64,000 bases of DNA from Bacteroidales bacterium. Its GTDB lineage: Bacteria > Bacteroidota > Bacteroidia > Bacteroidales > UBA932. Under the pieces are notes generated by a model, which worked only from the letters and a program-made list of their open reading frames with translations, was not told the origin of the DNA and did no database searches. This document shows, piece after piece, positions 20,494-40,204 of the stretch; position 1 is the stretch's first letter, and each line of letters starts with the position of its first letter. Where the stretch lies: assembly GCA_017429475.1 (NCBI GenBank), contig JAFROX010000006.1, forward strand, positions 126,008 through 190,007. The letters run 5' to 3'. Position numbers and translations under genes: made by a program.

Positions 20494-20547
20494 TGTAAAG
20501 CGGAATTGTAAAGAGAAAAGTGTAAAGAGTTGTAAAGACCTTTACAC
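20494..20547. promoter_or_regulatory. Array of four direct TGTAAAG heptamers plus one inverted copy (last pair forms TTGTAAAG-AC-CTTTACAC); candidate enhancer-binding sites and/or weak terminator
   Basis: TGTAAAG occurs at 20494, 20507, 20521 and 20531, and CTTTACA at 20540, in the 184-nt gap between the kinase stop and the TolC start. It is followed by TTTTTCGTTTTT. Confidence 0.45.
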
Positions 20548-25600: not shown

Positions 25601-26281
<681 letters not shown>

Positions 26282-26320
26282 GTGCGCCCGCCGTCCGGTA
26301 TTTACGGACGGTAGGAGCAC
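26282..26320 (+). repeat. Intergenic hairpin repeat, copy 1
   Basis: GTGCGCCCGCCGTCCGGTATTTACGGACGGTAGGAGCAC. It starts at the first base after the ATPase stop, and the CCGTCCG/CGGACGG stem is extended by flanking pairs. Confidence 0.8.
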
Positions 26321-26332
26321 TAAAGAACAGAA

Positions 26333-28669
26333 ATGAGATCAAAAAGCGATATTTGGATCAAGGTACTGTCCCTGGGTGTGGGGCTGGCGGTGGGCATCGT
26401 GCTCATTGCCAAGGTGTTCTTCGAACTCAGTTACGACAGCTTTTACAAGGACATCGACCGGGTGTACACGATTCGCACCTGGTACTCACAGCACGGGGAC
26501 GAACACGATTACGGGCAAGTTAGTGGAGCCGTATCTGTGGGCTTCATGGCGGAGGTCCCCGGTGTCGAAGTCGGTACACGTACGACTTATGTTTTCAACG
26601 GGGATACGTACCTGGATGAGAACGGAAATAAGCTGAAGGCCACCCTGGTCTGTGCCGATACCTGTTTCTTCAAGGTCTTTGACCGGCCGATCCTCGCCGG
26701 TGACCCGGTGAAGGTGTTGGGAAAATGGGGCTCCGTGATGGTGAGCCGGAGCTTTGCGGAGAAGATGGGTGGCATCCAGGAATGCATTGGCAAGCAGATT
26801 GTCAATGCTGATATGGATGGTCTGAAGCTGACCATCGAGGGCGTTTTTGAAGACTTCCCGAAGAACGGTAGCCTGGATTACGACATTCTTCTCTCGATGG
26901 ACACCTACGGCAAGCAGAGCACGGACAACTGGCTGGGCAATGACCGTTATAAAGGCTATGTCAAACTGGCCCCCGGTGTAAATCCGAATACGCTCACCGA
27001 TGCCATCCGCAAGATGCAGGAGGCGCATCAGCCGCTGGAGCAGATTGAGGCACAGGGAACCAGCCTGCGATACTTCCTGAAGCCGTTCAGCACGCTGCAC
27101 ACTTCCGACCCGGATGTGAAGTCCCAGGTAATCCTGCTCTCGATTGTGGCGGCGCTGCTGATTCTGATTTCCCTCCTGAACTACATCCTCATCGTAATCT
27201 CCTCCATGGTGAAGCGTTCCAAGGAAGTTGGCGTGCGGAAATGCTATGGAGCGGAGAGCAAACATATTTACGGGATGCTAAGTAAAGAAGCAGTGCTGCA
27301 TATTGCGCTCTCTTTGGTACTGGCGACTATCATCATATTCGCCGGCCGAAGCATCGTAGAGAACCTGCTTGGGGTTCCTTTCCAGACACTGCTGGTGCCG
27401 CAGAGTATCGTGGCCATCGCAGTTGTGATCCTCTTTGTGTTGGTGATTTCGATTGTGGTTCCGGCCGAGCTCTATCAGCGGATTCCGGTCTATGCCGCAT
27501 TAAAGAACTATACGGAGAATTCCCGCAACTGGAAATTGGGGTTGCTGGGTTTCCAGGTGCTCATCAACGTATTCCTGGTGGTGATGATGCTCATCATAGG
27601 CCGGCAATACCAGAAAGTGTCCCATGCCGATACAGGTTACGACTACAAGAATCTGTACTACTTTGACATGTTCGACGGAGACCGGCAGGCGTTGACGCGG
27701 GCACACCAGACACTGAAAAGTCTTCCGGAAGTAAGCGCTGTGGCAGCCGCCTACAATCTACCATTCCAAGGCTCCAACGGTGATAATGTTTATCTACCTG
27801 ATGACAACCGGGAACTATTTAACATTGCAGACCAGTATGAATGCTCTCCAGATTTCTATGACCTGATGGATATCCAGTTTCTGGAAGGCCGTGCACCCCG
27901 GGACTCCTCTGAAATCGTAGTGGACGAAAAGTTTGTGACCAAGATGGCGGAGTTTACAGACTGGAGCGACGGCGCCGTTGGCAAGCAGGTGTTCATTACG
28001 GGTCACGACAGTTCGAGCGATACGGAAAGGCGGTATTTCACCATTTCCGGCGTGTACAAGAGTTACCTCATCGGCAACCTGACCGGCGTGGATCCGCGCC
28101 CCAGCGCACTGTTCTATGGCGAAATTGGCTCAATGAGTTCCTGGATGCCGCATACCTTCTTCAAGGTAAGGCCGGAGGCGTTGCCGAAGGTTCGTCAGGC
28201 TCTGGAACTGGCCTTGGAGGGCCGGGAAATCAACATCCTATCCTATGAGGAGCAGATGCGAGCTGCCTATGCCGATAGCAAGAAGATGCGCAATACGATG
28301 GCTATCGGCGCCGTGTTCAGTCTCTTGATTGCACTCCTGGGCCTCATCGGCTTTATCCGCGATGAAAGCCTGCGCAGGAGCAAAGAAATGGCCGTCCGGA
28401 AAATCAATGGCGCTACGACCCGCGACATCCTGAGTGTCTTTGCTTTGGATATTCTGAAACTTTCGACCGTGATGGCCGTGATAGCCTGTATCGGAGCTTT
28501 CTTTGTTGCCCGCAAGTGGCTGGAGCAGTTTGCGGAGAAAGTGTCCCTGAATCCCCTCTATTTCATCGGCTGTGCTGTCCTTGTGCTGCTGATTGTGCTG
28601 GGCGTGGTGGTGATGAACTGCCTGAGGATCGCCCGGGCCAATCCGGTGGAATCGTTAAAGAACGAATAG
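26333..28669 (+). CDS. ABC permease 2, double-FtsX type (subtype B)
   Basis: 778 aa. It has two FtsX cores and a different N-terminus (MRSKSDIWIKVLSLGVGLAVGIVLIA). The C-terminus is IARANPVESLKNE. Confidence 0.82.
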   Translation: MRSKSDIWIKVLSLGVGLAVGIVLIAKVFFELSYDSFYKDIDRVYTIRTWYSQHGDEHDYGQVSGAVSVGFMAEVPGVEVGTRTTYVFNGDTYLDENGNKLKATLVCADTCFFKVFDRPILAGDPVKVLGKWGSVMVSRSFAEKMGGIQECIGKQIVNADMDGLKLTIEGVFEDFPKNGSLDYDILLSMDTYGKQSTDNWLGNDRYKGYVKLAPGVNPNTLTDAIRKMQEAHQPLEQIEAQGTSLRYFLKPFSTLHTSDPDVKSQVILLSIVAALLILISLLNYILIVISSMVKRSKEVGVRKCYGAESKHIYGMLSKEAVLHIALSLVLATIIIFAGRSIVENLLGVPFQTLLVPQSIVAIAVVILFVLVISIVVPAELYQRIPVYAALKNYTENSRNWKLGLLGFQVLINVFLVVMMLIIGRQYQKVSHADTGYDYKNLYYFDMFDGDRQALTRAHQTLKSLPEVSAVAAAYNLPFQGSNGDNVYLPDDNRELFNIADQYECSPDFYDLMDIQFLEGRAPRDSSEIVVDEKFVTKMAEFTDWSDGAVGKQVFITGHDSSSDTERRYFTISGVYKSYLIGNLTGVDPRPSALFYGEIGSMSSWMPHTFFKVRPEALPKVRQALELALEGREINILSYEEQMRAAYADSKKMRNTMAIGAVFSLLIALLGLIGFIRDESLRRSKEMAVRKINGATTRDILSVFALDILKLSTVMAVIACIGAFFVARKWLEQFAEKVSLNPLYFIGCAVLVLLIVLGVVVMNCLRIARANPVESLKNE

Positions 28670-28670
28670 T

Positions 28671-31043
28671 ATGAAAAGCTACCTGAAATTCCTGTCCCGA
28701 AACAAGCTTTACACTGCCATCGAGGCGGTGGGACTGGCCGTGAGCCTGGCGTTTGTCATCCTCATTGGCTCCTATGTTGTGCAGCAGTATGAGGTTGCGC
28801 ACGAGTCGCCGGACTGGAAACGCACCTTCGTGCTGGGAAATGGTGATTTCTTGGGCTTGACTTATTGGGACAAAGAGGAGCTTGAGATGAATGTTCCGGA
28901 AGTAGAGGCGGTCACGCATATGGCCCTCCTCTGGCAGCCGGTCATCCAAAATGATGAGCAGCCGATCCAGGCATCCGGAATCGAGACCGATGCCGACTTC
29001 TTCAAGGTATTCCCCGAATATCATCTTCTGGAAGGAGACCTTGAAGATTTCGTGAGCAAAGAGGACATTCTCATCAGTGTGTCGCTGGCCAGGAAGATGA
29101 GCGCTCAAATCGGACAAGTTCTCAAGGTGGACAAAGAGGACCGAACCATCAAAGGCATTTATGCCGACTTCGACGGAACCTTCTTTATGCCTGCGGACAT
29201 CATTACGAATATCACTGCCACCTGGGCTGCCGGGCAGAGCAAGCAGTTCAACAGCATCGGCAACTACACCACCTGGTTTCGCGTACGGGAAGATGCAGAC
29301 CTCGAGGAAGTGCGAACCAAAGCAAAAACCCTTCTCCACAAAAACTACGATTCTTCCTGGGGTGCAGAACAGGTGGATGCCTGGCGGGCTTACCGTATGG
29401 ATGAAGCCTTCTTTTTCACTGGTGGCAGCGATGGGCTCACCCGTACGGGCAATGCCCAGATGCTGCGCCTGCTCACCGTAGTTGTGTTACTGCTGCTTTT
29501 GTCGGCCATCTTCAACTATGTAAACCTTAGTCTGGCACTTACGGGCAAGAGGTCCAAAGAAATGGCTACCCGCCGCCTTCTCGGTGCCGACAAGTCCGGC
29601 ATCCTCTGGAAATACATCGGCGAATCCGTGGCCTTTACCGCCGTCTGCTTTGCCTTTGCGCTTCTGCTGGCCAATCTGTTGGTACCTATGATGAACAACC
29701 TGGTTTCTACCAGTGATCCGGACGAACTGATGCTGGGCATCGGAGACACCAGTGTAAGACTCTCCTTTATGCTCACGCCCGGTTATATTCTGGCATATAT
29801 AGCCGGTATTCTGGTTCTGGGCGTCGTCAACGGCCTTCTTCCAGCCTTTGCTGCCTCGCGGTATCAGCCTATAGATGTAATCAAAGGCACGCTCAGGCGC
29901 CGGAACAAAATGGTCTTGAGCAAAGTGTTCATCGTGGTGCAGAACGTCCTGTCGGTATTCCTGATTGCCCTGGCCTTGGTGATGGAGGTTCAGATGCAGC
30001 ATATGCTCACAAGGCCGATGCACGCTGCCACGGATAACCTTTTCTATATTGAGTACTCCGCCCAGAATTATGATGAGATGAAGCTTTTCAAGGACAAGGT
30101 TGAGCAGTTGTCATTTGTGACAAAGGCAGGTGTGGGGCGCGGTATTCCTGGAAACATAAATATGACGGTGAGCATCAAGGTTGATGAAGAACATCACTTG
30201 GATATGCCTGTCATTCTCTGCGACAGCACTTATTTCCAGTTGCTTGGGTTGGAGATGGAGGAAGATTTCGGACATCCGCTGGTACATTCGCTCTGGATGA
30301 GCCGAAGCGCTTTCAACGCAGCTGCAGTGTCAGATACATCTACTGTCTTTCCCCGGAGAATCAATATGAACGGTGCCCAGCCGGAATTCATTGGTGGCAT
30401 AGTGGCCGATTATCCTACCAGGCCGGCGTCTGAAAGCAATCAAAACTCCAATGGCGGCGTCATCGTGACCCGGGCGGAAGAGCTCAGGTATGCCAATTGT
30501 CTCCTCATCGGCACCAACGGGGAAGACAAGTCCTATGAGGAACAGATTCTTCAGGCCTACCGGGAATTCCGTCAGGAAACCTCCGGCGTCGAAGAACCCG
30601 CCTGGCGGTATGGCTTTGTGCGTGACATTAACAAGAAGATGCTGGCTCCTGTTCAGAGAACCCTGCGCCTGGTGGAACTCTTTGCAGTCCTTGCGGTATT
30701 GATATCCCTGCTCGGCCTGCTGGCTATGAGCACCTATTTCGCTGATGAGAATACGAAGCAGATCGCAGTGCGGAAGGTGTTTGGCTCTGATGTGTCGCAG
30801 GAAACCCGGCGGGCGGTCCGCAGTTATATGGATCTGACGGGGATTGCCTGCGTGATCGGCATCCCGCTGGCCATCTGGGCCTCAAGAGTTTACCTGGAGC
30901 GCTTTGCCTATCGCATAGAGGGCTATGGATGGGTGTTCGTGGTGGCCGTTGTTATTTCGCTGGCCATCGCCTTTGGAACGGTCCTCTGGCAGACCCTCAA
31001 GGCCGCCCGGACCAATCCCGCCATTGAACTGAAGAAAGAATAA
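28671..31043 (+). CDS. ABC permease 3, double-FtsX type (subtype A)
   Basis: 790 aa. N-terminus MKSYLKFLSRNKLYTAIEAVGLAVSLAFVI. C-terminus LKAARTNPAIELKKE. It starts 1 nt after the permease-2 stop. Confidence 0.85.
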   Translation: MKSYLKFLSRNKLYTAIEAVGLAVSLAFVILIGSYVVQQYEVAHESPDWKRTFVLGNGDFLGLTYWDKEELEMNVPEVEAVTHMALLWQPVIQNDEQPIQASGIETDADFFKVFPEYHLLEGDLEDFVSKEDILISVSLARKMSAQIGQVLKVDKEDRTIKGIYADFDGTFFMPADIITNITATWAAGQSKQFNSIGNYTTWFRVREDADLEEVRTKAKTLLHKNYDSSWGAEQVDAWRAYRMDEAFFFTGGSDGLTRTGNAQMLRLLTVVVLLLLLSAIFNYVNLSLALTGKRSKEMATRRLLGADKSGILWKYIGESVAFTAVCFAFALLLANLLVPMMNNLVSTSDPDELMLGIGDTSVRLSFMLTPGYILAYIAGILVLGVVNGLLPAFAASRYQPIDVIKGTLRRRNKMVLSKVFIVVQNVLSVFLIALALVMEVQMQHMLTRPMHAATDNLFYIEYSAQNYDEMKLFKDKVEQLSFVTKAGVGRGIPGNINMTVSIKVDEEHHLDMPVILCDSTYFQLLGLEMEEDFGHPLVHSLWMSRSAFNAAAVSDTSTVFPRRINMNGAQPEFIGGIVADYPTRPASESNQNSNGGVIVTRAEELRYANCLLIGTNGEDKSYEEQILQAYREFRQETSGVEEPAWRYGFVRDINKKMLAPVQRTLRLVELFAVLAVLISLLGLLAMSTYFADENTKQIAVRKVFGSDVSQETRRAVRSYMDLTGIACVIGIPLAIWASRVYLERFAYRIEGYGWVFVVAVVISLAIAFGTVLWQTLKAARTNPAIELKKE

Positions 31044-31045
31044 AA

Positions 31046-31083
31046 GTGCACCCGCCGTCCGGAGATTACGGACGGCAGGAGCG
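31046..31083 (+). repeat. Intergenic hairpin repeat, copy 2
   Basis: GTGCACCCGCCGTCCGGAGATTACGGACGGCAGGAGCG, followed by the conserved leader AAAAAGAGATAAAAATG. Confidence 0.8.
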
Positions 31084-31097
31084 AAAAAGAGATAAAA

Positions 31098-33488
31098 ATG
31101 AAGAGCTACCTGAAATTCCTGTCCCGAAACAAGCTGTACACCGCCATCGAGGCAGTGGGGCTGGCGGTGAGCCTTGCGTTTGTGATCATGATAGGCTCAT
31201 CCATCCGGGATCAGTTGGGAATTGTTTACAACGTGCCTGACCATGATAATTTGTATCTAGTCGGTCCGGCATCCGGTGGCAGTATTGTCGGAGAATATCG
31301 TGTGAAAGAGGAACTTGCATCCATTCCGGAAATCCGGGAAACAGCTGCTTTCACTATTGAACAGGCTATGGTCCAGATTGCTGGAGAGAATCGATTAACT
31401 GCAATCGGAATGATGGATCCCAATCTTCTGGAGATGATTCCGTTGAGAGTAATATCGGGCAGTAACGATCCCTTTGAAAGCGGGGAAGGAGTTGCTATTA
31501 CGGTTTCGGCTGCCAGACGTTTCTTTCCTGATCGGAATCCGGTCGGAGAAGCTCTGGGCTGGCTGGAAACCCCAACCTCCCAGCCTGTCCCGACCCGGAT
31601 TACCGCCGTTGTCGATGACCCTTCCTATTCCATCCTGGGTGATTTTGATTTCGTCGTGAATCTGCAGTCGCGGCTCTGCCCCCTGGCAACGGAAATACGG
31701 GAATCCGATCTTGGAAATAACGGGCGTGGATATACCGCCTATATTTTCTCCCGCCTTCAAGAAGGCATTCAGGTGGATTCCGTATTGAACGCTCGTATCA
31801 GGAATCTGCACGGTTGGTTCTTGAGCCGGGATGAAAGAGACGCCCGGATGCTGACGGCATACGACGACATTTACTTGTCGAATCAAACACAATACGCCCT
31901 TCGTCAGGGTAAACGGATGTATCTGTCCGTATTGATTGCACTGGTCATACTTTTGCTTGTCTCCGCCATACTGAGTTATGTAAATCTGTCTATGGCCGTC
32001 ACCGGAGACCGCGCCCGTGAGATGGCAACGCGACGCTTGGTCGGAGAAGACCAGCATCACGTTTTCCAGCGTGTGATTGGCGAGTCTCTGCTTTTCGTCT
32101 CTGTCTGCTATCTGTTTGCAATCCTTTTGGCCTGGTGGATTGCTCCGGGACTGGACAGCATCCGTCCAACAGGGCTCAATGTGCCCTTCCGCATCCGTTT
32201 GGACGGAGTTTTCTGGATAATTTCAGTCGTACTGGTGCTTTTGGTTGGAGCGCTCGCCGGTATCGTCCCTGCGGTCGCCTGTGCCTCCTTTCGGCCTCTG
32301 GATGTGGTTTCGGGCAAGATACGCCGTAAACGCAAGATGTACTTCGGTAGAATCTGCATTATCCTGCAAAGTGTGCTGGCCGTTGTTCTGATTGTGATGA
32401 CCATCACACTCGAACGGCAGTTGAACTATTTGAAGAATGCCGATCTGGGGGTGGATATGCAAGAGGACTTGTTCTTCTACATTCCGGGATTTGTCGAGAA
32501 AGGACAAGATTTGAATGCACTGGGTGACTTGTTCAAGTCTTGCCCGCTCGTTCTGGAAATCGGCGGGGCGACAGGATATCCGACGTATATTCAATATATG
32601 ACCTCCGGGACACAGGGGATGTTGAAGACCATCAGGTGCGACTCCACGGCTTTTTCAATGCTTGGATTCCGTCTGGAAGAAAGCTTTGCTCAAACGGTAG
32701 GATCAGTTTTTCTCACCCGTTCGGCGGCGAACAAGTATGGTGTGACCCGTGATAATGCCAATCCGGCGAGTCTGTATTGGGGGTACGAGCGTTATCCTGA
32801 CGCTTATCCCTCCATTGTCGGAGGAATCATTCAGGATTTCCGAACCATACCGGTCAATGGAACGGACAGGTATAACGATGCGGATGCTGTACCTATCGTG
32901 GAGGTGGGAGCTGCAACTGAGTATCCGGGAGCTTTTCTGATTCGGACGACCCCCGACCACCGGGCTTTTGAGAAGTGGTTCAGGGAGACCATCGGGGCGT
33001 ATTGCAAAGAGAAGTATGGTTTCTCGAACGTATTCGATATGGAATATTCGAAAAACGATTATATAGAAGATTTGATTGCCGCGGACCATGACGATATGCG
33101 TCGTTATGTACGGCTGGTCGAGATATTCTGCCTGATTTCCATCCTGTTGTCATTGCTGGACCTTGTGGCGATGAGTTCCCATTATGCAGGTGTCAATGCC
33201 AAGAACATCGCTATCCGCAAAGTCTTCGGTGGCACTGTAGCATCCGAGACCAACAGAGGAGTGCAGACTTATATGTTATGGATCGGGATTTCGCTGCTGA
33301 TTGCCATTCCGATTTCGGTTGTGGTCAGTGAACGTTTCCTGCAGAACTATGCTGAACATATAACTGGTTATTGGTGGATATTCGTTGCGGCCGCCTTGTT
33401 GACCGTGCTGCTTTCGCTCGCCTCCGTCCTCTGGCAAACCCTCAAGGCTGCCCGGACCAATCCGGCTATTGAACTGAAGAAAGAATAA
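31098..33488 (+). CDS. ABC permease 4, double-FtsX type (subtype A)
   Basis: 796 aa, with the same first 30 aa and the same C-terminal LKAARTNPAIELKKE as permease 3. Confidence 0.85.
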   Translation: MKSYLKFLSRNKLYTAIEAVGLAVSLAFVIMIGSSIRDQLGIVYNVPDHDNLYLVGPASGGSIVGEYRVKEELASIPEIRETAAFTIEQAMVQIAGENRLTAIGMMDPNLLEMIPLRVISGSNDPFESGEGVAITVSAARRFFPDRNPVGEALGWLETPTSQPVPTRITAVVDDPSYSILGDFDFVVNLQSRLCPLATEIRESDLGNNGRGYTAYIFSRLQEGIQVDSVLNARIRNLHGWFLSRDERDARMLTAYDDIYLSNQTQYALRQGKRMYLSVLIALVILLLVSAILSYVNLSMAVTGDRAREMATRRLVGEDQHHVFQRVIGESLLFVSVCYLFAILLAWWIAPGLDSIRPTGLNVPFRIRLDGVFWIISVVLVLLVGALAGIVPAVACASFRPLDVVSGKIRRKRKMYFGRICIILQSVLAVVLIVMTITLERQLNYLKNADLGVDMQEDLFFYIPGFVEKGQDLNALGDLFKSCPLVLEIGGATGYPTYIQYMTSGTQGMLKTIRCDSTAFSMLGFRLEESFAQTVGSVFLTRSAANKYGVTRDNANPASLYWGYERYPDAYPSIVGGIIQDFRTIPVNGTDRYNDADAVPIVEVGAATEYPGAFLIRTTPDHRAFEKWFRETIGAYCKEKYGFSNVFDMEYSKNDYIEDLIAADHDDMRRYVRLVEIFCLISILLSLLDLVAMSSHYAGVNAKNIAIRKVFGGTVASETNRGVQTYMLWIGISLLIAIPISVVVSERFLQNYAEHITGYWWIFVAAALLTVLLSLASVLWQTLKAARTNPAIELKKE

Positions 33489-33490
33489 AA

Positions 33491-33528
33491 GTGCGCCCGC
33501 CGTCCGGAATTTTCGGACGGCAGGAGCG
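33491..33528 (+). repeat. Intergenic hairpin repeat, copy 3
   Basis: GTGCGCCCGCCGTCCGGAATTTTCGGACGGCAGGAGCG, followed by the same leader AAAAAGAGATAAAAATG. Confidence 0.8.
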
Positions 33529-33542
33529 AAAAAGAGATAAAA

Positions 33543-35837
33543 ATGAAGAGCTACCTGAAATTCCTGTCCCGAAACAAGCTTTACACCGCCATCGAGGCGG
33601 TGGGGCTGGCGGTGAGCCTGGCGTTTGTGATTATCATCGGTTCGTATGTGTGGCAGCAATATGCTGTGACGAGGGAGAACCCGGATCGGGAGAGGATATA
33701 TGTGCCCGGTATGCCGGATTTCCCGGCGTTGACATACGGTTTCCCGGATGTCATTGCGGATATACCCGAAATAGAGGCTGTGTCCAGACTTTGTGCCGTC
33801 CGGGTATATCCTGTCATTCGGGGAGAGTCGGTAGAAGCTGAAAGCGCCGGCGTGGAACCGGCTTTCTTCGAGATTTGTCCCCAGTTCCGTTTTGTGGAAG
33901 GTTCCGCTGATGTGCTGTCTGCTCCCTCCAACGTCATCATTACAGCTTCATTCGCCAACAGGCATAACCTTTCGGTGGGCGATGCTCTGGAGATTAGTGA
34001 AGCCAACTATGTGGTAGGCGCCATTCTGGAGGACCTGAAGGGGACGGTAATAAAGCCTTATGAAATCTTCCGGAATGCCGCAGTTTACAAGAACAACTGG
34101 CAGTTGTTCGACAATTTCGGCAGCACAACCGTTTTCATCAAAGTCCGTCCCGGAACGGAAAGGCAAGATTTGTATGACAAACTGGAGGCCGTATGCAAAA
34201 AGGTCTATCCCGGCATATATGGTCAAAGTTTCTTCGAGACCCTGGTGCTGTCGCGCTACGATGAACTGTTCTTCGCGGAAACTGATGGTATATTCCGGCA
34301 CGGGGACAAAGGGACGCTGAGGGTTCTGTCGCTGGTAGGACTGCTCCTGCTTCTGTCGGCAATCCTCAACTACGTCAACCTTTCCGTTGCACTCACCGGG
34401 AAGCGGGCTAAGGAGATGGCTGTAAGGCAATTGTCCGGGGCATCGAGAAGAGGAATTATCTGGAAATACGTGGCTGAGTCCATCGCGTTCACCGCTGTAT
34501 GCTTTGCAGCCGGCCTCTTGCTGGCGGAAGCCTTCTGCCCGGCTATGAATGCACTGCTCAACAATCCGGATGTTCCGATCCGTGTCATCTGGGCTCCGGG
34601 GTATTTGCTCGCGTACGTCGCCATCATTCTGACGGTCGGGGCGTTCTGCGGCATCTTCCCGGCGATGATGGCCGGCCGCTACAAGCCTGTCGATGTGATG
34701 AAGGGAGGATACCGGCGCCGGAGCAAGATGGTGTTCAGCAAGGTTTTCATCGTGCTGCAGAATGCTCTGGCAGTCATCCTGATAGCGCTCGCCATCACTA
34801 TGGAAGCCCAGATGCGCAAGACGCAGTCACGGCCGATGCATTGCGATATCGCGGACAAATACTATCTGGTCAGTTATTCCTATGACTATGACGACTCCTT
34901 CAAGAATGTACTAGAAACGCTTCCGGCTGTAAAGCGGGTGGGGAAGAGCAATGGTGTGCCCGGAAGCATCCGGGGAGGGCAGTACAGTACCACACGGGAC
35001 GGACAGGATATTCTGTATAGGCTTATCCGGATGGACAGCACTGCTTTTGCGATGTTCCGGTTCGAGATACTTGAAGACTACCGCACCCCGCTGTTCAACA
35101 GCGTATGGTTCTCCGACGAAAGTTTTGCAGCAAGCGGCTTCGACAGCGAATACCACGAAATAGGGACGCTCTCCCAGCGTACGCAAGGCTGTAACCAGAT
35201 GGCCGGCGTTTTCAAAGCGTTCCCGACCAATTCGGCCAATATTGGAGAGGATGATTATGCCATCATCTCCGTGATGAGGACTGAGGACATCTCGTCCAAC
35301 AGCTGGGTGATTGAGACGACCGGGGACAGGAAAGAGGCTGCAAGACAGATTAATGATGCTTATGAAGCATATGCGAAAGAACATAATGTTATTGAGACGG
35401 AAGCGTTCTGGGTCGATGAGCACATAGCCGAGGCCTGGAAGCCCGCCCGCAACAATATGCGCCTTGTGGAAATCTTTATGTTTCTCTCCATCCTCATCGC
35501 ATTGCTCGGCCTGGTAGCTATGAGTACATATTACGCCGATGAGAAATCCCGTGACATTGCCGTCCGGAAGGTTTTCGGCGGAACTGTTGACTCCGAGGCG
35601 AGGAGAACGATCCGGGACTATATGGTGCTTGTCGGCATCGCCTGCGTCATCGGCATTCCGGTAGCCGTCTATGCCGCCCAGGAATACCTCAAAGACTTCA
35701 TTTACCGGCTCGAAGGTTACTGGTGGATATTCGTCGTGGCTGTGCTGCTCACCGGCATCATCGCTTTTGTCTCTGTCATCTGGCAGGTGCTCAAAGCTGC
35801 CCAGACCAATCCCGCTATTGAACTGAAGAAAGAATAA
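33543..35837 (+). CDS. ABC permease 5, double-FtsX type (subtype A)
   Basis: 764 aa, with the same first 30 aa as permeases 3 and 4. The C-terminus is LKAAQTNPAIELKKE. Confidence 0.85.
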   Translation: MKSYLKFLSRNKLYTAIEAVGLAVSLAFVIIIGSYVWQQYAVTRENPDRERIYVPGMPDFPALTYGFPDVIADIPEIEAVSRLCAVRVYPVIRGESVEAESAGVEPAFFEICPQFRFVEGSADVLSAPSNVIITASFANRHNLSVGDALEISEANYVVGAILEDLKGTVIKPYEIFRNAAVYKNNWQLFDNFGSTTVFIKVRPGTERQDLYDKLEAVCKKVYPGIYGQSFFETLVLSRYDELFFAETDGIFRHGDKGTLRVLSLVGLLLLLSAILNYVNLSVALTGKRAKEMAVRQLSGASRRGIIWKYVAESIAFTAVCFAAGLLLAEAFCPAMNALLNNPDVPIRVIWAPGYLLAYVAIILTVGAFCGIFPAMMAGRYKPVDVMKGGYRRRSKMVFSKVFIVLQNALAVILIALAITMEAQMRKTQSRPMHCDIADKYYLVSYSYDYDDSFKNVLETLPAVKRVGKSNGVPGSIRGGQYSTTRDGQDILYRLIRMDSTAFAMFRFEILEDYRTPLFNSVWFSDESFAASGFDSEYHEIGTLSQRTQGCNQMAGVFKAFPTNSANIGEDDYAIISVMRTEDISSNSWVIETTGDRKEAARQINDAYEAYAKEHNVIETEAFWVDEHIAEAWKPARNNMRLVEIFMFLSILIALLGLVAMSTYYADEKSRDIAVRKVFGGTVDSEARRTIRDYMVLVGIACVIGIPVAVYAAQEYLKDFIYRLEGYWWIFVVAVLLTGIIAFVSVIWQVLKAAQTNPAIELKKE

Positions 35838-35844
35838 TGATATA

Positions 35845-38175
35845 ATGATACTACGAAACCTGAAGAGCCTTATCCGCCGCTATCCGGTGGCGGTTGTCCT
35901 GAACTTCACTGGACTGGTGGCGGCGCTGCTTGCCTTTGCCCTGATATTCCTGCAAGCCGATTATGAGCTGTCTTTTGACAAGTGCCATCCGACGGCCAAC
36001 CGGGTTTTCCGGGCCGATAAGAAAGGCGATGAGACGCTGTTCAGGAATATCCTGCCGAGAGGCTTTGCCGACGATATCATCGGCTCGTCGGCCCACATCG
36101 AGGCGGGATGTACGTATATGCCGTTCCTGGGTGAGATCTATTTCTCAGTGGCAGAAGACGGAAAGGATCCCATCGGTTACAAGCGTGATCTGAAGTTCGT
36201 GTCGGAGCGTTTCATCGACGTGTTCGGCATCAAGATGATCGAGGGCGATTCACACGCGCTGGAAGGTCCCAATTCGGTGATTATTCCCCAGTCGCTGGCG
36301 GAAAACCTGTTCCCGGGAGAACGGGCGATTGGCAAGTTGCTGAAGACGGACGCCAAGTATATGGAGGTCCCCCGCGAGATAACTGTGACCGGCGTGTATG
36401 AGGACTTCCCGACGAACACACAACTTGGGAATGACCTGTACCTGACCGTCGGCGATGTCCAGAAAGGGAGTTATGGGGGAGCCAATTTCGTCTGCTATCT
36501 GCTGCTGGATGATGCCGGCAACTCTCAGGCTGTAGCCGATGAGTTCAACGACCATTTCGACTTTCCTCCGCAAGGAGACTGGCTTACGCCCATCGAGCTG
36601 GTGCCGCTTACCAGCATATACTTCCGGAACGAGGGTAATGTCTATAAGAGCGGCAGCCGTTCGCAGCTGCTTCTGCTCATTGCCATCGCTATCTTGATCC
36701 TGGGCATCGGCCTGATCAACTTTACCAATTTCTATGTGGCGCTGACGCCGCTGCGCATCCGGAGCGTGAACCTGCAGAAGATCCTGGGGTCTTCGACTCG
36801 GAGGCTGCGTGCCCTGGTGGTGGCGGAGGCGGTGATATGGTGCATCTGCGCCTTTGGGGTGTCCGCCCTGCTGCTGGGACCGGTTTCCGATGCGCTGCTG
36901 ACCCGGGGCGTGCTGATGCAGTCCTTCTCCTTCGGCAAGCATTGGGGCCTGCTGCTGTTCGTCGGGACGGTCGCGGTGGCCACCGGTTTCATTGCCGGTA
37001 TCTGGCCGGGCATCTATTCCACATCGGGCCAGCCGGCGATGATCCTGCGGGGCAACTATGGCCTGTCGGCCTCCGGAAAGAACCTCAGGACCATTTTGGT
37101 GGGCGTGCAGTTCGTTATTTCAACTGCGCTGCTCATCTTTGTTCTGTTCGTCCAGCGTCAGAGCAAGTTCATGCAGGAGTATCCCTGCGGCTACGACAAG
37201 AATAACCTGGCGGTGGTGAATATCGGTGGCGAGAACGGCCGGGAGAAGGCCGATTGGCTGCGGGAGAGGCTGTGCGCACTTCCGGAGGTGAAGGACGTGG
37301 CCTATGCGAACGATCTCATCGGCAGCTCGGATACTTATAGCACGCAGGGTGCGGATTTCGGTGAAGGAGAGGTTCTGATGAGTATGATATACTGCAGCTG
37401 GAACCTGCCGCAGGTGCTGGGGCTGGAGGTGCTTGAAGGCCGGGATTTCAACGAAGGCGAGTTCGGCCCATACCTTTTGACATCGGATATGCAGTCATAT
37501 GGTGCTGATATGGACACAGGGGGAATGGATGGCGAGACTCCAATCGTGGGCTTCGTCAATAATGTGAATATCACTTCTATGCGCAAGGCTGATTCTCCTG
37601 TGGCGTTCCAGGTGCATACCAGCAAGGGACACTCGATGCCGTTCGCATATATCCGGCTTACGGAGGGGGCGGACCGTCTGGCAGCCACCGATAAAATCGG
37701 GAACATCCTCCGGGAGATGGACCTTACGATGCCGTACGAGGTGCAGTTCTACGATGCCATCGGCAAGAACCTTTACAGCGGCGAGGAGCGCCTGCGGCTG
37801 GCCGTATGGCTGTTCTCCCTGCTGGCAGTGCTGCTCTCGTTGGTGGGCATCTGGGGCCAGGTGCTGATGGATGTGCAGTACAAGCGGATGGAGATTTCGG
37901 TGAAGCGGGTGTTCGGGGCCGATATGGGCCAGATTACTTCGGAGGGCTTGATGCTGTATCTTAGGACGGTGGCCATCTGTTATGTGATTGCGGCGCCCAT
38001 CGGCTGGCTGGTGGTGAAGTATTACCTGCAGCAGTTCGCGCACAGGGTGGGCTTTATGCCGGGGGTGTTCCTGCTGGCGCTGGTGATTGTGGGGCTGCTA
38101 TGCGCCGCCGTGGTGCTGTATCACTACCTTAAGACCGCCAGGATGAATCCGGCGGAGGCGCTGAAGAATGAGTAA
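35845..38175 (+). CDS. ABC permease 6, double-FtsX type (subtype B)
   Basis: 776 aa. N-terminus MILRNLKSLIRRYPVAVVLNFTGLVAALLAF. C-terminus LKTARMNPAEALKNE. Two FtsX cores. Confidence 0.85.
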   Translation: MILRNLKSLIRRYPVAVVLNFTGLVAALLAFALIFLQADYELSFDKCHPTANRVFRADKKGDETLFRNILPRGFADDIIGSSAHIEAGCTYMPFLGEIYFSVAEDGKDPIGYKRDLKFVSERFIDVFGIKMIEGDSHALEGPNSVIIPQSLAENLFPGERAIGKLLKTDAKYMEVPREITVTGVYEDFPTNTQLGNDLYLTVGDVQKGSYGGANFVCYLLLDDAGNSQAVADEFNDHFDFPPQGDWLTPIELVPLTSIYFRNEGNVYKSGSRSQLLLLIAIAILILGIGLINFTNFYVALTPLRIRSVNLQKILGSSTRRLRALVVAEAVIWCICAFGVSALLLGPVSDALLTRGVLMQSFSFGKHWGLLLFVGTVAVATGFIAGIWPGIYSTSGQPAMILRGNYGLSASGKNLRTILVGVQFVISTALLIFVLFVQRQSKFMQEYPCGYDKNNLAVVNIGGENGREKADWLRERLCALPEVKDVAYANDLIGSSDTYSTQGADFGEGEVLMSMIYCSWNLPQVLGLEVLEGRDFNEGEFGPYLLTSDMQSYGADMDTGGMDGETPIVGFVNNVNITSMRKADSPVAFQVHTSKGHSMPFAYIRLTEGADRLAATDKIGNILREMDLTMPYEVQFYDAIGKNLYSGEERLRLAVWLFSLLAVLLSLVGIWGQVLMDVQYKRMEISVKRVFGADMGQITSEGLMLYLRTVAICYVIAAPIGWLVVKYYLQQFAHRVGFMPGVFLLALVIVGLLCAAVVLYHYLKTARMNPAEALKNE

Positions 38176-38213
38176 TTGCTCCCGCCGTCCCAAAATCGCG
38201 GACGGCAGGAGCG
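38176..38213 (+). repeat. Intergenic hairpin repeat, copy 4a
   Basis: TTGCTCCCGCCGTCCCAAAATCGCGGACGGCAGGAGCG, immediately after the permease-6 stop. Confidence 0.75.
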
Positions 38214-38227
38214 AAAAAGGGGGTAAA

Positions 38228-38266
38228 ACGCGCCCGCCGTCCGGAATTTATGGATGGCAGGAGCAC
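38228..38266 (+). repeat. Intergenic hairpin repeat, copy 4b (degenerate, with a leader remnant but no following permease)
   Basis: ACGCGCCCGCCGTCCGGAATTTATGGATGGCAGGAGCAC. The right arm reads TGGATGG instead of CGGACGG, so the stem survives only through G-U pairs on the plus-strand RNA. It is followed by AAAAGAATAAAA, which resembles the AAAAAGAGATAAAA leader. Confidence 0.7.
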
Positions 38267-38343
38267 AAAAGAATAAAACCACTGGAGACGTATTTCTGCT
38301 TTTTGTGTGTTTTATAGACAAACGAAAACAAAACAAAAACGCA

Positions 38344-38769
38344 ATGAAGATATTGAAGACAGTGATTTGCGCAGCGATGCTGGTGGCAGGGCTGAGCGGT
38401 TGTGAGAAACTCGACCAGGAACGTACAATCGATTATAGCAAGCTGGAAGGCACCTGGACCGAGCAGTATGACCCGACGGTATTTGCAATGGACGGCTCGG
38501 TGACATATACTTTTGACGGAAACAACAGTTACCAGCTTCATCTATATAACGCCCTTGGCGGCGGATCGTACGACTACAGCGGCCATTACTCCCTCGAACT
38601 GACGGACAAGAACACAATAACCATCAATCCGGAAATGTCCGACATGACGAGCGTCACATATAAGATCGTGAAATTGACAGGAAAGGAGATGGAGTGGCAG
38701 AAGGAAGGCACCACTTACTCCAAAGGCACCTGGGGAAGCGACTACAGGCACTTTGTCAGAGTCAGGTGA
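38344..38769 (+). CDS. Lipocalin-like-domain lipoprotein
   Basis: I prefer the ATG at 38344 (MKILKTVICAAMLVAGLSGC lipobox) over the track start at 38254, which begins inside hairpin copy 4b. The LEGTWTEQYD...YKIVKLTGKEMEWQ pattern is typical of small Bacteroidales lipocalin-like proteins. Confidence 0.6.
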   Translation: MKILKTVICAAMLVAGLSGCEKLDQERTIDYSKLEGTWTEQYDPTVFAMDGSVTYTFDGNNSYQLHLYNALGGGSYDYSGHYSLELTDKNTITINPEMSDMTSVTYKIVKLTGKEMEWQKEGTTYSKGTWGSDYRHFVRVR

Positions 38770-38953
38770 CAGCTGGTTTCATCAACCAGAAAATCGGAGA
38801 GCAGATCATACCATTCCCCAGAACCCGTATGCTTTTTATTCCTGCGGTGTGAGTCGTTTTTGGCGCAGAGAGCAAACAATATCACGTTTTAGCGCATTCT
38901 TGAGCATTTGATCCTGCTCTCTGATTTTTGGGTTGCTCAGCGGGCAGAAGGAT

Positions 38954-39988
38954 TTACGTGAAGTAGTCCTTTACTTCATCATACACAAGGCCGCACAACC
39001 GAATAATCTGCTTCAACGAACTGTTGTACCTGCTGCGCAATGTCCGGGCAAGTTTGAGCCTTTGTTGCATATTCAGCGTCTTGACATTGCTGACACCATA
39101 CAATTCCTGGCATACTTCGCTCTTGTGCTGCCTCATCTCTTGCATGGGTACTGTAAGGTGTGAGATAGTCCCTCCACGGGAATCTACATCATCTTCCTTG
39201 GATACGCACATGAAGTAATTAAAACTCTTGCAAGACTTGAATAGCTTCTCGACAATTTTAAATGCGGTATAAAACCCAGGGAATACAATGGATCCTGCCA
39301 TTGGAACATTCTCATCGGGAAGTATCCTGGTTTTAAGAATCTGCCTTAACTGACCGACTCCGATGCCATCGGTGCCAGCAAGATTTCCGAGGTTATCCGA
39401 CCAATGAGGGCTGCTCCACAGTCCCGGACGTCTGAAATAAAGCGGACCACTTGACCACGGATAGTCAAGTGCATTATAAGATATGCCACCCACGGGTGCA
39501 TTCTTGATCACGTAACAGATGACAACTTTAAGGTAATAATCGTCGCTGACCGTCTGACAATTGATGGGTACATTGTCAAACTTATGTTTCTCACTGCGAC
39601 GGACAGACATATACCAGGATGTCCTGCGAACATAGTCGTGAATGAATCTGTTGCAATCGTCAAACTTCCCATACAAAACAAAATGAATGTGGGTATCCAT
39701 CAGTGAGAATGCGAGAATGATGACATTGTAGCATCTCACGGTCGTGTAGATCCTGTTCATTCCGACGATGAAGTCATCTTCATCATAAAACATTGCATCG
39801 ACAGCGTTACCGTCGGTGCTGAAATGCCAGCAATCTCTGATAATGATTTTCTGTCCCTTGACAAAGGGTCTGTCAAGTCCCAGATCAGATGTGATCTGCC
39901 CGAGCAGTTCTTGATTAATCTTCATCTTCATACCCAGCGCCTCTAGTGGCTGCTCGATGACAAATGTACAACAAAAACTTGTCATCAA
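38954..39988 (-). CDS. HUH/Y1 (IS200-RayT-like, COG1943-type) transposase-domain protein with a C-terminal extension; probably domesticated. The true start may be 39931
   Basis: HUH motif in SLMDTHIHFVLYG. Tyr motif CYVIKNAPVGGISYNALDYPWSS matches the Y-x-x-x-N-P-V...Y.WSS pattern of REP-associated tyrosine transposases. Sampled 60-nt lines in the gene are about 40-47 percent GC, against about 67 percent in a sampled line at 37021. An 8-bp hairpin (39956-39986) inside the N-terminal extension favours the ATG at 39931. Confidence 0.55.
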   Translation of the reverse strand: MMTSFCCTFVIEQPLEALGMKMKINQELLGQITSDLGLDRPFVKGQKIIIRDCWHFSTDGNAVDAMFYDEDDFIVGMNRIYTTVRCYNVIILAFSLMDTHIHFVLYGKFDDCNRFIHDYVRRTSWYMSVRRSEKHKFDNVPINCQTVSDDYYLKVVICYVIKNAPVGGISYNALDYPWSSGPLYFRRPGLWSSPHWSDNLGNLAGTDGIGVGQLRQILKTRILPDENVPMAGSIVFPGFYTAFKIVEKLFKSCKSFNYFMCVSKEDDVDSRGGTISHLTVPMQEMRQHKSEVCQELYGVSNVKTLNMQQRLKLARTLRSRYNSSLKQIIRLCGLVYDEVKDYFT

Positions 39989-40043
39989 ACTGAAAAATGC
40001 AGCGCATATAAACGTCCTCCAAAGCCCGTAAAACGCTTAATCT

Positions 40044-40124
40044 CTTGCGCTCTGAGCCGAAATCGCCGCGGAGCGCAAGTGGATTGCCACATAAGCGAGT
40101 TGTAAGACACTCGCCTTGCGCTCC
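40044..40124. other. Three-segment mutually exclusive pairing element (CTTGCGCTC / GAGCGCAAG / CTTGCGCTC) in the divergent intergenic region
   Basis: Segment 2 (40070-40079, GGAGCGCAAG) can pair with segment 1 (40044-40052) or with segment 3 (40115-40124, CTTGCGCTCC). An inner GCGAGT/ACTCGC stem lies between segments 2 and 3. Confidence 0.4.
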
Positions 40125-40204
40125 GATTTTCAAATAGGACAATTAAGAAAAATATTTGTATGGCTAAAAAAATTAGCTATATTCGCAAAAAGTTTAGTTG
40201 CGTT

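What the first reader, a model, noticed from the sequence alone, without database searches (positions are those of the whole stretch)
26282..38266. Five-copy conserved hairpin (CCCGCCGTCCGG-loop-CGGACGGCAGGAGCG) marking permease cassette junctions
The same roughly 38-nt imperfect palindrome starts within 0-2 nt of a stop codon at four junctions. These are after the ATPase (26282), after permease 3 (31046), after permease 4 (33491), and twice after permease 6 (38176, 38228). It is absent where genes abut (P2/P3, P5/P6).

Loop sequences vary (GTATTTA, AGATTA, AATTTT, CAAAATCG, AATTTA) while the stem is kept.

In copy 4b the right arm has mutated CGGACGG to TGGATGG. This preserves pairing only as G-U on the plus-strand RNA, which suggests selection at the RNA level.

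No U-tract follows. Instead there is an A-rich leader, AAAAAGAGATAAAA-ATG, so these are not classical terminators.

Possible roles:
- RNase processing or 3'-stabiliser elements that set differential permease dosage from one polycistron;
- translational coupling or insulation signals;
- REP-like elements.

Copy 4b carries a leader remnant but no permease behind it. That looks like the scar of a lost or never-completed cassette.
Basis: seen in the sequence. Interest (0 to 1): 0.62.

Follow-up and report, generated by a model that had tools for sequence, protein, structure and literature searches.

The report
Mobile REP-like hairpins between permease genes
The five hairpins between the transporter genes are copies of a small repeated palindromic DNA element that comes and goes between sister species of an uncultured rumen Bacteroidales genus and is tied to a family of hairpin-cutting transposase-like genes, so they are not a signal specific to permease gene junctions.

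Summary
Five copies of a 39-nt GC-rich palindrome lie at 26282, 31046, 33491, 38176 and 38228, each 0-2 nt after a stop codon.

They are not specific to the FtsX array:
- The same genome has two more copies between unrelated genes.
- Eight sister species carry about 25 further arrays in varied intergenic sites.
- None was found in 300 other genomes of the order.

The real unit is 51-52 nt: a hairpin plus an A/G-rich linker. It occurs as singlets, doublets, triplets and 4-mers at a fixed period. The "4b scar" is therefore just the normal doublet form.

Stems are kept by compensatory changes. Both strands fold equally well and both orientations occur, so the plus-strand G-U argument fails.

Orthologous sites in sister species are empty. 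In G019 the ATPase stop and the P2 start overlap (TAGTG) where G000 has exactly one unit.

A clade of Y1 HUH proteins is flanked by such doublets in 13 of 17 loci. Their fold best matches E. coli RAYT bound to a REP hairpin, and the stem type tracks the protein clade.

Best reading: a REP/BIME-like family of a REP-RAYT-type system. Any mRNA role is possible but untested.

The parts
26282..26320 (+). Hairpin unit a, a 39-nt palindrome directly after the ATPase stop codon. The A-rich tail 26321-26332 runs up to the P2 ATG.
   Evidence: 60.1 bits; -28.7 kcal/mol. The orthologous site is empty in G019 and G009.
31046..31097 (+). Hairpin unit b (31046-31084) plus linker-like tail GAAAAAGAGATAAAA, ending at the P4 ATG.
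   Evidence: (58.1 bits).
33491..33542 (+). Hairpin unit c (33491-33529) plus an identical tail, ending at the P5 ATG.
   Evidence: (61.5 bits).
38176..38280 (+). Doublet after P6: unit d1 38176-38214, linker GAAAAAGGGGGTAAAAC 38213-38229, unit d2 38228-38266, tail AAAAGAATAAAACC. The period is 52 nt.
   Evidence: The same doublet is present in G024. The MFE fold is one long REPIN-like hairpin.
30984..31187 (+). Homogenised junction block P3->P4: the last ~60 nt of P3, unit b, and the first ~90 nt of P4.
   Evidence: 93-100% identity to the P4->P5 block, while gene interiors are 20-60% identical. Permease amino-acid identities are 23-44%.
33429..33632 (+). Homogenised junction block P4->P5, the counterpart of the block above.
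25601..38175 (+). Host operon: ABC ATPase (25601-26281) and five MacB/FtsX permease paralogues P2-P6 (26333-28669, 28671-31043, 31098-33488, 33543-35837, 35845-38175). HlyD (21991-23247) and P1 (23251-25578) lie upstream.
   Evidence: Pfam hits; ORFs.
38954..39988 (-). Neighbouring Y1 HUH (RAYT/IS200-like) gene P0001, 690 nt from the doublet. It belongs to a different clade (28% identity) from the one flanked by 52-nt units. A link to these hairpins is unproven.
   Evidence: HUH and Tyr motifs. No Pfam or NCBIfam hit. Orthologues lack this hairpin family in their flanks, except in G024, and carry other flanking repeats.

Best explanation
The hairpins are members of a lineage-restricted family of repetitive extragenic palindromes (REP/BIME-like).

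**The unit.** It is about 52 nt: a 39-nt GC-rich palindrome (consensus GTGCTCCCGCCGTCC-N9-GGACGGCGGGAGCAC) followed by an A/G-rich linker (GAAAAAGGGGGTAAAAT).

**Shown:**
- Units are inserted and lost in intergenic DNA, usually just after stop codons.
- They amplify locally as tandem copies.
- Related unit families flank a clade of Y1 HUH transposase-like genes.

**Inferred:**
- By analogy with E. coli TnpA-REP and IS200/IS605 TnpA, that protein recognises the single-stranded DNA hairpin and cuts or joins next to it. This would explain both the dispersal of units and why palindromy is preserved by compensatory change.
- In this window, one unit landed between the formerly overlapping ATPase stop and P2 start.
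- The P3/P4 and P4/P5 copies were then spread by gene conversion or duplication of a ~200-nt junction block.
- The doublet after P6 is the ordinary dimer form.

Any effect on the polycistronic mRNA (3' protection, uncoupling of translation, an A-rich leader for the next gene) would be a by-product or a later co-option. It is untested.
For: **1. Not locus-specific.** There are 7 units in G000: 5 here and 2 on C13, between unrelated genes. I catalogued 32 arrays and 60 units across 9 of 31 genus genomes, all intergenic. None was found in 300 genomes of 209 other genera of the order. A public scan finds the family only in ruminant Bacteroidales MAGs.

**2. Fixed architecture.** Units occur as singlets to 4-mers at a 51-53-nt period with a conserved linker. 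Identical triplets (G007:C38, G019:C151) show recent tandem amplification.

**3. Palindromy is maintained.**
- 86% of cells are paired, against 35-48% for slid controls.
- 11 of 16 pairs show double-sided changes.
- The covariation score is 0.281, against 0.185 when shuffled (0 of 500 shuffles higher).

**4. Insertion/absence polymorphism at orthologous sites.**
- The ATPase->P2 junction has 1 unit in G000 and G014, and 2 units in G007.
- It has none in G019 (stop/start overlap TAGTG) or G009, although the ATPases are 95-96% identical.
- The C13 site is empty in G042, where the flanking gene is 90% identical.
- Metagenome contigs of related strains lack the hairpin at two junctions.

**5. Transposase link.**
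- P0002-clade genes are flanked by doublets of 51-52-nt period in 13 of 17 loci, on both sides in 6.
- The G042 copy is flanked by the very family of this finding.
- G000's own copy (C11:122402-123256) is flanked by doublets with a different stem but the same period and linker.
- Stem type follows protein clade, with 96-100% support.

**6. The protein is a Y1 HUH enzyme.**
- Pfam Y1_Tnp scores 28.7 bits, above the cut-off of 23, and 12 of 17 members hit it.
- The two HUH histidines (H50, H52) and two tyrosines (Y110, Y127) are invariant.
- The AF2 model has pLDDT 87.8.
- Its best PDB fold match is 4ER8, E. coli RAYT bound to a REP hairpin (E 2e-4), followed by IS608 and ISDra2 TnpA.
Against: - Copy number is low (7 units of this family in an 80%-complete MAG), far below the >100 typical of classical REPs.
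- There is no unpaired GTAG or CGTC tag.
- Units in arrays are direct repeats, not alternating or inverted.
- No RAYT-like gene flanked by this exact stem family was found in G000. The only one seen is in G042, and G000's P0002-clade gene carries a different stem.
- Transposition or cleavage has not been shown.
- Two of the five window copies clearly spread with flanking coding sequence, not by transposition.
- Placement 0-2 nt after stop codons, and retention at three junctions in G014, could reflect host selection.
- ORF calls in sister MAGs are heuristic, and orientation counts are small (about 8 A-sense against 4 T-sense loci).
Confidence: 0.8

Rival explanations
1. The hairpins are primarily host-selected RNA elements in the polycistronic FtsX mRNA. 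They would act as 3' stabilisers, RNase processing sites, or devices that uncouple translation of neighbouring genes to set permease dosage. Their similarity to dispersed repeats would be secondary.
For: - Strong folds as RNA: -23 to -29 kcal/mol, z -4.6 to -6.0.
- They start 0-2 nt after stop codons and are followed by an A-rich, unstructured leader up to the next ATG.
- They are retained at the same three junctions in G014.
- A different hairpin (ATTCCCGG..CCGGGAAT) occupies permease junctions in related strains.
- From my own knowledge, not tested here: E. coli REPs stabilise upstream mRNA (Newbury 1987) and lower translation when within ~15 nt of a stop codon (Liang, Rudd and Deutscher 2015).
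Against: - The same family sits in unrelated contexts, in both orientations relative to genes.
- The - strand folds as well or better, and the C.A mismatches on + are G.U on -.
- Close relatives have no hairpin at the same junction and instead an overlapping stop/start.
- Two junctions of the same operon lack it.
- The available RNA data are too fragmentary to show 3' ends.
Confidence: 0.13
2. The copies are simply co-duplicated with the permease genes, as a passive by-product of tandem gene duplication, with no mobility of their own.
For: The P3/P4 and P4/P5 junctions share a ~200-nt block at 93-100% identity that includes the hairpin.
Against: - The copies after the ATPase and after P6 share no coding flank with the others.
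- Copies exist on another contig and in about 25 unrelated loci of sister species.
- The permeases are old paralogues at 23-44% amino-acid identity.
- Empty orthologous sites exist.
Confidence: 0.03
3. They are intrinsic transcription terminators or attenuators between the genes.
For: A GC-rich 15-bp stem. On the opposite strand each unit is followed by ATTTTACCCCCTTTTT or ACTTTTATT.
Against: - No T-tract follows on the sense strand here.
- The genome's evident terminators are A-tract/hairpin/T-tract.
- The consensus scan flags none of the five on either strand.
- They lie inside an operon whose downstream genes need expression.
Confidence: 0.03
4. They are attC-like recombination sites of an integron-like cassette array.
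For: Imperfect palindromes at the 3' end of successive genes.
Against: - The 'cassettes' are paralogues of one family.
- The hairpins have no R''/R' (RYYYAAC / GTTRRRY) cores in the sequence.
- The family occurs as tandem doublets without genes between them and in ordinary operons.
- Integrase was not specifically searched for.
Confidence: 0.01

Closest known systems
E. coli REP/BIME elements with RAYT (TnpA-REP, PDB 4ER8); REPtron arrangement
   Same: - Short, imperfect, GC-rich extragenic palindromes lying after genes and inside operons.
- Clustered at regular spacing.
- Related units flank a Y1 HUH gene whose predicted fold best matches 4ER8.
- Stem and protein co-diverge.
   Different: - Copy number is in the tens at most, not hundreds.
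- There is no unpaired GTAG tag.
- Units in a cluster are direct repeats with one conserved linker, not alternating Y/Z orientations.
- The protein is about 290-345 aa with a ~150-aa helical C-terminal tail.
- The host is a rumen Bacteroidales genus.
REPIN-RAYT systems of Pseudomonas (Bertels and Rainey; PMC3116915, PMC3337134)
   Same: - The doublet is the common form and can fold into one long hairpin.
- Each RAYT lineage has its own repeat family.
- Inheritance is mostly vertical, with a patchy distribution.
   Different: - REPINs are two inverted REPs. Here two near-perfect palindromes stand in tandem at a fixed 52-nt period, and arrays reach 3-6 units.
- Populations are far smaller.
TnpA-Y1 subclasses 2.1 and 2.6 of Quentin et al. 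2018 (PMC6006769)
   Same: - The NHVH-type HUH motif, the Y[IV]HxN-type Tyr motif and a C-terminal helix-turn-helix-like tail resemble subclass 2.1.
- Subclass 2.6 is the Bacteroidetes group flanked by 'atypical secondary structures'.
   Different: - Subclass 2.1 was reported without REPs nearby, and subclass 2.6 proteins are about 179 aa. Here a long-tailed protein is flanked by regular hairpin doublets.
- Subclass assignment was not tested phylogenetically here.
IS200/IS605 transposases (IS608, ISDra2 TnpA)
   Same: Same Y1 HUH fold. Recognition of subterminal DNA hairpins and no target duplication are expected. The filled and empty sites compared here show no duplication.
   Different: The hairpin units are dispersed without the gene, and the gene is not multicopy with identical ends.
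CGTC-/GTAG-tagged REP superfamilies (Di Nocera et al. 2013, PMC3733652)
   Same: Palindromic repeats forming dimers. The paper reports a CGTC REP group in Bacteroidetes.
   Different: Those have 8-9-bp stems, 4-5-nt loops, a terminal unpaired tag and no dedicated transposase. Here the stem is 15 bp, the loop is 7-9 nt, and CGTC occurs only inside the stem.

Membership tests
REP / BIME (repetitive extragenic palindromes) | Short (20-40 nt) imperfect palindrome able to form a stable stem-loop | tested here: met
   39 nt with a 15-bp stem. Folds are -23 to -29 kcal/mol, z -4.6 to -6.7 on both strands. 86% of cells are paired across 58 units.
REP / BIME (repetitive extragenic palindromes) | Extragenic and dispersed at many unrelated loci of one genome | tested here: met
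   All 32 catalogued arrays are intergenic. G000 has the family at 2 loci, plus at least 5 further arrays of the same architecture.
REP / BIME (repetitive extragenic palindromes) | High copy number (typically >100 per genome) | tested here: not met
   7 units in G000 (80% complete). There are 3-12 sites per sister genome.
REP / BIME (repetitive extragenic palindromes) | Clusters of regularly spaced units in alternating orientation | tested here: not met
   The spacing is regular (51-53 nt), but the linkers all point the same way within an array, so the repeats are direct.
REP / BIME (repetitive extragenic palindromes) | Conserved unpaired GTAG (or CGTC) tetranucleotide at one end | tested here: not met
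   The 5' end GTGC is paired. Flanks show no constant tetranucleotide. Definition taken from PMC3733652.
REP-RAYT system (REPtron) | Repeat units flank a Y1 HUH tyrosine transposase gene | tested here: met
   13 of 17 P0002-clade loci, on both sides in 6. G042:C35 is flanked by this exact family. No gene flanked by this exact stem family was found in G000.
REP-RAYT system (REPtron) | Protein has the HUH motif, a catalytic Tyr and the RAYT/IS200 fold | tested here: met
   Invariant H50, H52, Y110 and Y127. Pfam Y1_Tnp scores above the cut-off. The top Foldseek hit is 4ER8.
REP-RAYT system (REPtron) | Repeat family co-diverges with its RAYT lineage | tested here: met
   Four protein clades with 96-100% support each carry their own stem type.
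REP-RAYT system (REPtron) | The protein binds and cleaves its cognate hairpin as single-stranded DNA | not testable with these tools
   This needs biochemistry.
Intrinsic (Rho-independent) terminator | GC-rich hairpin immediately followed by a U-tract on the transcribed strand | tested here: not met
   An A-rich tract follows on the + strand. Not flagged by the scan. Genuine terminators of this genome look different.
Known structured RNA families (Rfam 15) | Match to a curated covariance model at its gathering score | tested here: not met
   Only a sub-threshold MIR1862 match to the doublet (36 bits against a gathering score of 84), which is a chance palindrome match.
Integron attC sites | R''/L''...L'/R' core sites (RYYYAAC...GTTRRRY), next to an IntI integrase and unrelated cassettes | tested here: not met
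   No such cores in the five copies. The genes between them are paralogues. Integrase was not specifically searched for.

The most novel reading that the evidence does not exclude
Two claims combined.

**A new REP-RAYT class.** Long, helix-tailed Y1 HUH proteins are annotated only as 'hypothetical' in rumen Bacteroidales. Each co-evolves with its own 52-nt hairpin-plus-linker unit, arranged as direct tandem doublets.

**Host co-option.** Units land exactly between overlapping stop and start codons. That breaks translational coupling and supplies a stem at the stop codon plus a Bacteroidetes-type A-rich leader. The host would use this to set the relative dosage of paralogous FtsX permeases.
Probability: 0.15. 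Interest if true: 0.65.

Novelty: new variant of a known kind. Interest (0 to 1): 0.4.

Why it matters
- It removes a tempting but wrong reading, that of a cassette-junction RNA signal.
- It gives a concrete annotation for several hundred unnamed 'hypothetical' Y1 HUH proteins in rumen Bacteroidales MAGs. For the clade present in this window, one search finds 868 clusters.
- REP-RAYT systems have been studied almost entirely in Proteobacteria. A Bacteroidales system with a fixed 52-nt tandem unit, a conserved linker and clade-specific stems gives a compact test case for how a HUH enzyme reads hairpin plus linker.
- The repeats break MAG assemblies, since several copies lie at contig ends. They could also serve as strain markers in rumen metagenomics.

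Tried and rejected
- **Rfam scan of 20-42 kb:** only a chance miRNA-precursor match.
- **RNA runs:** only short Logan contigs from mixed relatives. No read-level 3' ends, and the depth is dominated by conserved ABC ATPase sequence from other organisms, so the data are uninformative.
- **First PF01797 genome search:** only sub-threshold hits in G000, none next to the hairpins. The link emerged later through the P0002 clade.
- **P0001 (window 38954-39988) as the cognate transposase:** rejected as unproven. Its orthologues in G019, G001, G007 and G042 have no unit of this family within 1.5 kb and carry other long flanking repeats.
- **tRNA-fragment idea for the flank of the G004/G007 doublet:** ARAGORN finds nothing.
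- **My first three doublet detectors:** they missed known cases because of strict mismatch or register rules. The centre-aligned version works. The reversed-sequence control is invalid, because reversal keeps palindromes.
- **Target-site duplication:** none is consistent across flanks.
- **Orientation bias:** about 8 A-sense against 4 T-sense loci, not significant.
- **Earlier-findings look-up by sequence:** nothing.
Full report
**Observation.** The pattern CCGCCGTCCGG-N-CGGACGG has three exact matches in the window, against none in 100 shuffles. Reading the junctions shows all five reported copies on the + strand at 26282, 31046, 33491, 38176 and 38228. Each begins 0-2 nt after a TAA.

No hairpin is present at the P1/ATPase, P2/P3 and P5/P6 junctions. 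The genes are HlyD, one MacB/FtsX permease, an ABC ATPase and five more MacB/FtsX permeases. The permeases are old paralogues, 23-44% identical.

The stem is best described as 15 bp with two mismatches. Sister-species copies read GTGCTCCCGCCGTCC-N9-GGACGGCGGGAGCAC, a perfect palindrome.

**Not specific to the permease array.**
- The window's genome is a 2.0-Mb, 80%-complete MAG. It holds two more copies, again as a tandem pair, at C13:62131-62221. They lie between a 391-aa cytidylyltransferase/kinase-like ORF and a 107-aa mutarotase-like ORF, on the sense strand of those genes.
- A covariance model built from 16 copies finds the family in 9 of 31 genomes of the genus. It finds it in none of 300 other genomes of the order, covering 209 genera.
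- A scan of one genome per prokaryotic species finds it only in ruminant 'Bacteroidales bacterium' MAGs (yak, sheep, buffalo). The other matches are isolated chance hits in high-GC actinomycetes.
- DNA runs that hold the window are ruminant gut metagenomes.

**Anatomy of the repeat.**
- I catalogued 32 arrays with 60 units.
- Units occur as singlets, doublets, triplets and 4-mers at a period of 51-53 nt.
- They are joined by a conserved linker, GAAAAAGGGGGTAAAAT. A shortened A-rich tail follows the last unit.
- The 'leader' AAAAAGAGATAAAA before the P4 and P5 start codons is this linker.
- The 38176/38228 pair is the ordinary doublet. It also occurs in G024, G007, G009, G004, G042 and on C13 of this genome, so it is not the scar of a lost cassette.
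- Identical triplets (G007:C38, G019:C151) show recent tandem amplification.
- All arrays are intergenic, usually 0-25 nt after a stop codon. Some lie between convergent genes.
- Both orientations relative to the upstream gene occur, roughly 8 against 4 independent loci.

**Is the structure selected, and on which strand?** On 58 distinct units, 86% of cells pair, against 35-48% when partners are slid. Eleven of 16 pairs show double-sided changes. Examples are GCC/GGC to ATC/GAT, CCC/GGG to GTC/GAC, and a compensated one-base insertion CCGGTCC/GGACCGG. The covariation score exceeds all 500 shuffles.

So palindromy is maintained, but nothing points to the + strand RNA:
- All five window copies carry a C.A mismatch on the + strand that is G.U on the - strand.
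- The - strand folds are equal or better: -26.2 against -22.9, -26.6 against -24.8, and for the doublet -58.7 against -51.3 kcal/mol.
- Both wobble directions occur across the family.

The two C-to-T changes in copy 4b are what transitions in a decaying copy would give.

The genome's real terminators are A-tract/hairpin/T-tract, and the scan flags none of the five copies. Rfam has nothing.

**Mobility.**
- The orthologous ATPase->P2 junction carries one unit in G000 and G014. That is exactly 51 nt between TAA and ATG.
- It carries two units in G007.
- It carries none in G019 and G009, whose ATPases are 95-96% identical. In G019 the stop and start overlap as TAGTG.
- The C13 site is hairpin-free in G042, where the flanking gene is 90% identical and the same downstream gene follows.
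- Contigs from related strains in other ruminant metagenomes lack the hairpin at the ATPase/P2 and P4/P5 junctions. Others carry a doublet, or an unrelated hairpin.
- No target duplication is evident.

Within the window, the P3/P4 and P4/P5 copies sit in a ~200-nt block that is 93-100% identical, while gene interiors are 20-60% identical. The same coding-end blocks occur at the hairpin-less P2/P3 and P5/P6 junctions. These two copies therefore probably spread by gene conversion or duplication rather than by separate insertions.

**Link to a transposase-like gene.** It does have the HUH and Tyr motifs, although Pfam and NCBIfam give nothing.

Its orthologues elsewhere are not flanked by this hairpin family and carry other long repeats. 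I therefore do not take it as the cognate enzyme.

A second clade, 28% identical, is the relevant one:
- In G042:C35 a 287-aa member (P0002) is flanked on both sides by doublets of exactly this family.
- In G000 itself the 54%-identical member at C11:122402-123256 is flanked on both sides by doublets with a different stem (GCTATGGGTCC/GGACCCATAGC). They have the same 52-nt period and the same linker.
- Across the genus, 13 of 17 loci of this clade have such doublets next to the gene, and 6 have them on both sides. This compares with about one array per 290 kb genome-wide in G000.
- A maximum-likelihood tree puts proteins with the same flanking stem into the same well-supported clades.

P0002 passes the Pfam Y1_Tnp cut-off, and 12 of 17 family members hit that model. 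The two HUH histidines and two tyrosines are invariant. The AlphaFold model has pLDDT 87.8. Its best PDB match is 4ER8, the E. coli REP-associated tyrosine transposase bound to a REP hairpin, followed by IS608 and ISDra2 TnpA. A sequence profile weakly hits the same IS200-family chains.

**Interpretation.**

Shown:
- a dispersed, lineage-restricted palindromic repeat;
- a fixed 52-nt unit;
- compensatory maintenance of the stem;
- presence/absence at orthologous sites;
- tandem amplification;
- a Y1 HUH gene clade flanked by clade-specific versions of the unit.

Inferred, by analogy with TnpA-REP and IS200/IS605: the protein recognises the hairpin as single-stranded DNA and mobilises or maintains the units.

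Not shown: any activity, or any effect on the FtsX mRNA.

E. coli REPs are known, from my own knowledge, to stabilise upstream mRNA and to depress translation when close to a stop codon. A secondary role here is therefore plausible, but the data argue against it being the reason the element exists.

**Comparison with known systems.** The closest are REP/BIME-RAYT of enterobacteria and REPIN-RAYT of Pseudomonas (PMC2817692, PMC3116915, PMC3479197).

Differences:
- low copy number;
- no GTAG tag;
- direct rather than alternating or inverted units, with one conserved linker;
- a long helical C-terminal tail on the protein.

In the classification of Quentin et al. (PMC6006769), long-tailed subclass 2.1 proteins were reported without nearby REPs. 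The Bacteroidetes subclass 2.6 proteins are short and have 'atypical' flanking structures. The present system seems to sit between these, but I did not place it phylogenetically.

Public homologues of the window's own HUH gene are all 'hypothetical protein' of Bacteroidales MAGs.

**Caveats.**
- G000 is 80% complete, so counts are lower bounds.
- The model R1 sees only one stem family.
- Gene calls in sister MAGs are longest-ORF heuristics.
- The only gene seen flanked by this exact stem family is in G042.

Noticed in passing
G000:C1:180342-180464, C2:566-664, C2:23434-23470, C9:428-550, C14:218442-218564, C14:232680-232802 (all outside the window): A second palindromic repeat family, GTGTACAAGGTCTGC-loop-GCAGACCTTGTACAC. 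It usually occurs as two copies 85-110 nt apart, and several lie within 600 nt of contig ends. It looks like the ends of another repeated element.
   Followed up: no
window 38954-39988 (-) and flanks 38770-38953, 39989-40140; L054:1290-1450 and 2590-2750: The P0001-type HUH gene sits next to the end of an FtsX array in G000, G024, G007, G001 and G042. In G007 it is bracketed by ~160-nt direct repeats that contain long inverted repeats. Pieces of these (GCTCTGWGCCRAAATCGCCGC, GCTCTSTGAWTTTTGGGTT) recur in the window flanks. It may be its own IS-like or REPtron unit.
   Followed up: partly
G000:C14:232940-233079, C1:124328-124418, C13:157658-157741 (outside the window): Further arrays of 51-52-nt period with other stems (GTGGACGG/CCGTCCAC with 18-nt loops; GTAGTCTGC/GCAGACTA). 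The hairpin-plus-linker architecture is therefore a superfamily in this genome.
   Followed up: partly
L002? no: L072:1263-1579 (G002:C5): A six-unit array of 51-nt period (CCGTGCCC...GGGCACGG) lies 50 nt downstream of the only HUH-like gene of G002, a genome that lacks the family studied here.
   Followed up: no
L025 (G019:C31) ~90-110; L040 (G004:C59) ~1410-1440; L080 (G019:C73) ~3500-3520; compare window 20494-20531: Direct repeats of AGTGTAAAG follow hairpin arrays in three loci. It may be a regulator binding site that tends to lie next to array insertion sites.
   Followed up: no
L089 (G009:C45), just after the ATPase stop: The hairpin-free junction in G009 carries a 13-nt tandem duplication, GCTGTAGTGAAAA x2, spanning the stop/start overlap. 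It could be a slippage product or an excision footprint.
   Followed up: no
window 31043/33488 -> 35844 in metagenome contigs of run X6: Related strains have an unrelated hairpin (ATTCCCGGACAAGCCGGGAAT) between a P3/P4-type permease end and a P6-type start. Other contigs join permease ends differently, which indicates strain-level reshuffling of the permease array.
   Followed up: no
window 38344-38769 (+): A 141-aa ORF with a lipoprotein-like signal peptide and no Pfam hit lies between the doublet and the HUH gene. The arrangement is conserved in G024.
   Followed up: no
window 28671-28760, 31098-31187, 33543-33632: P3, P4 and P5 share their first 30 codons at 87-100% nucleotide identity, although the proteins are 35-44% identical overall. 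This suggests gene conversion, or a nucleotide-level constraint at the 5' ends that is independent of the hairpin.
   Followed up: partly
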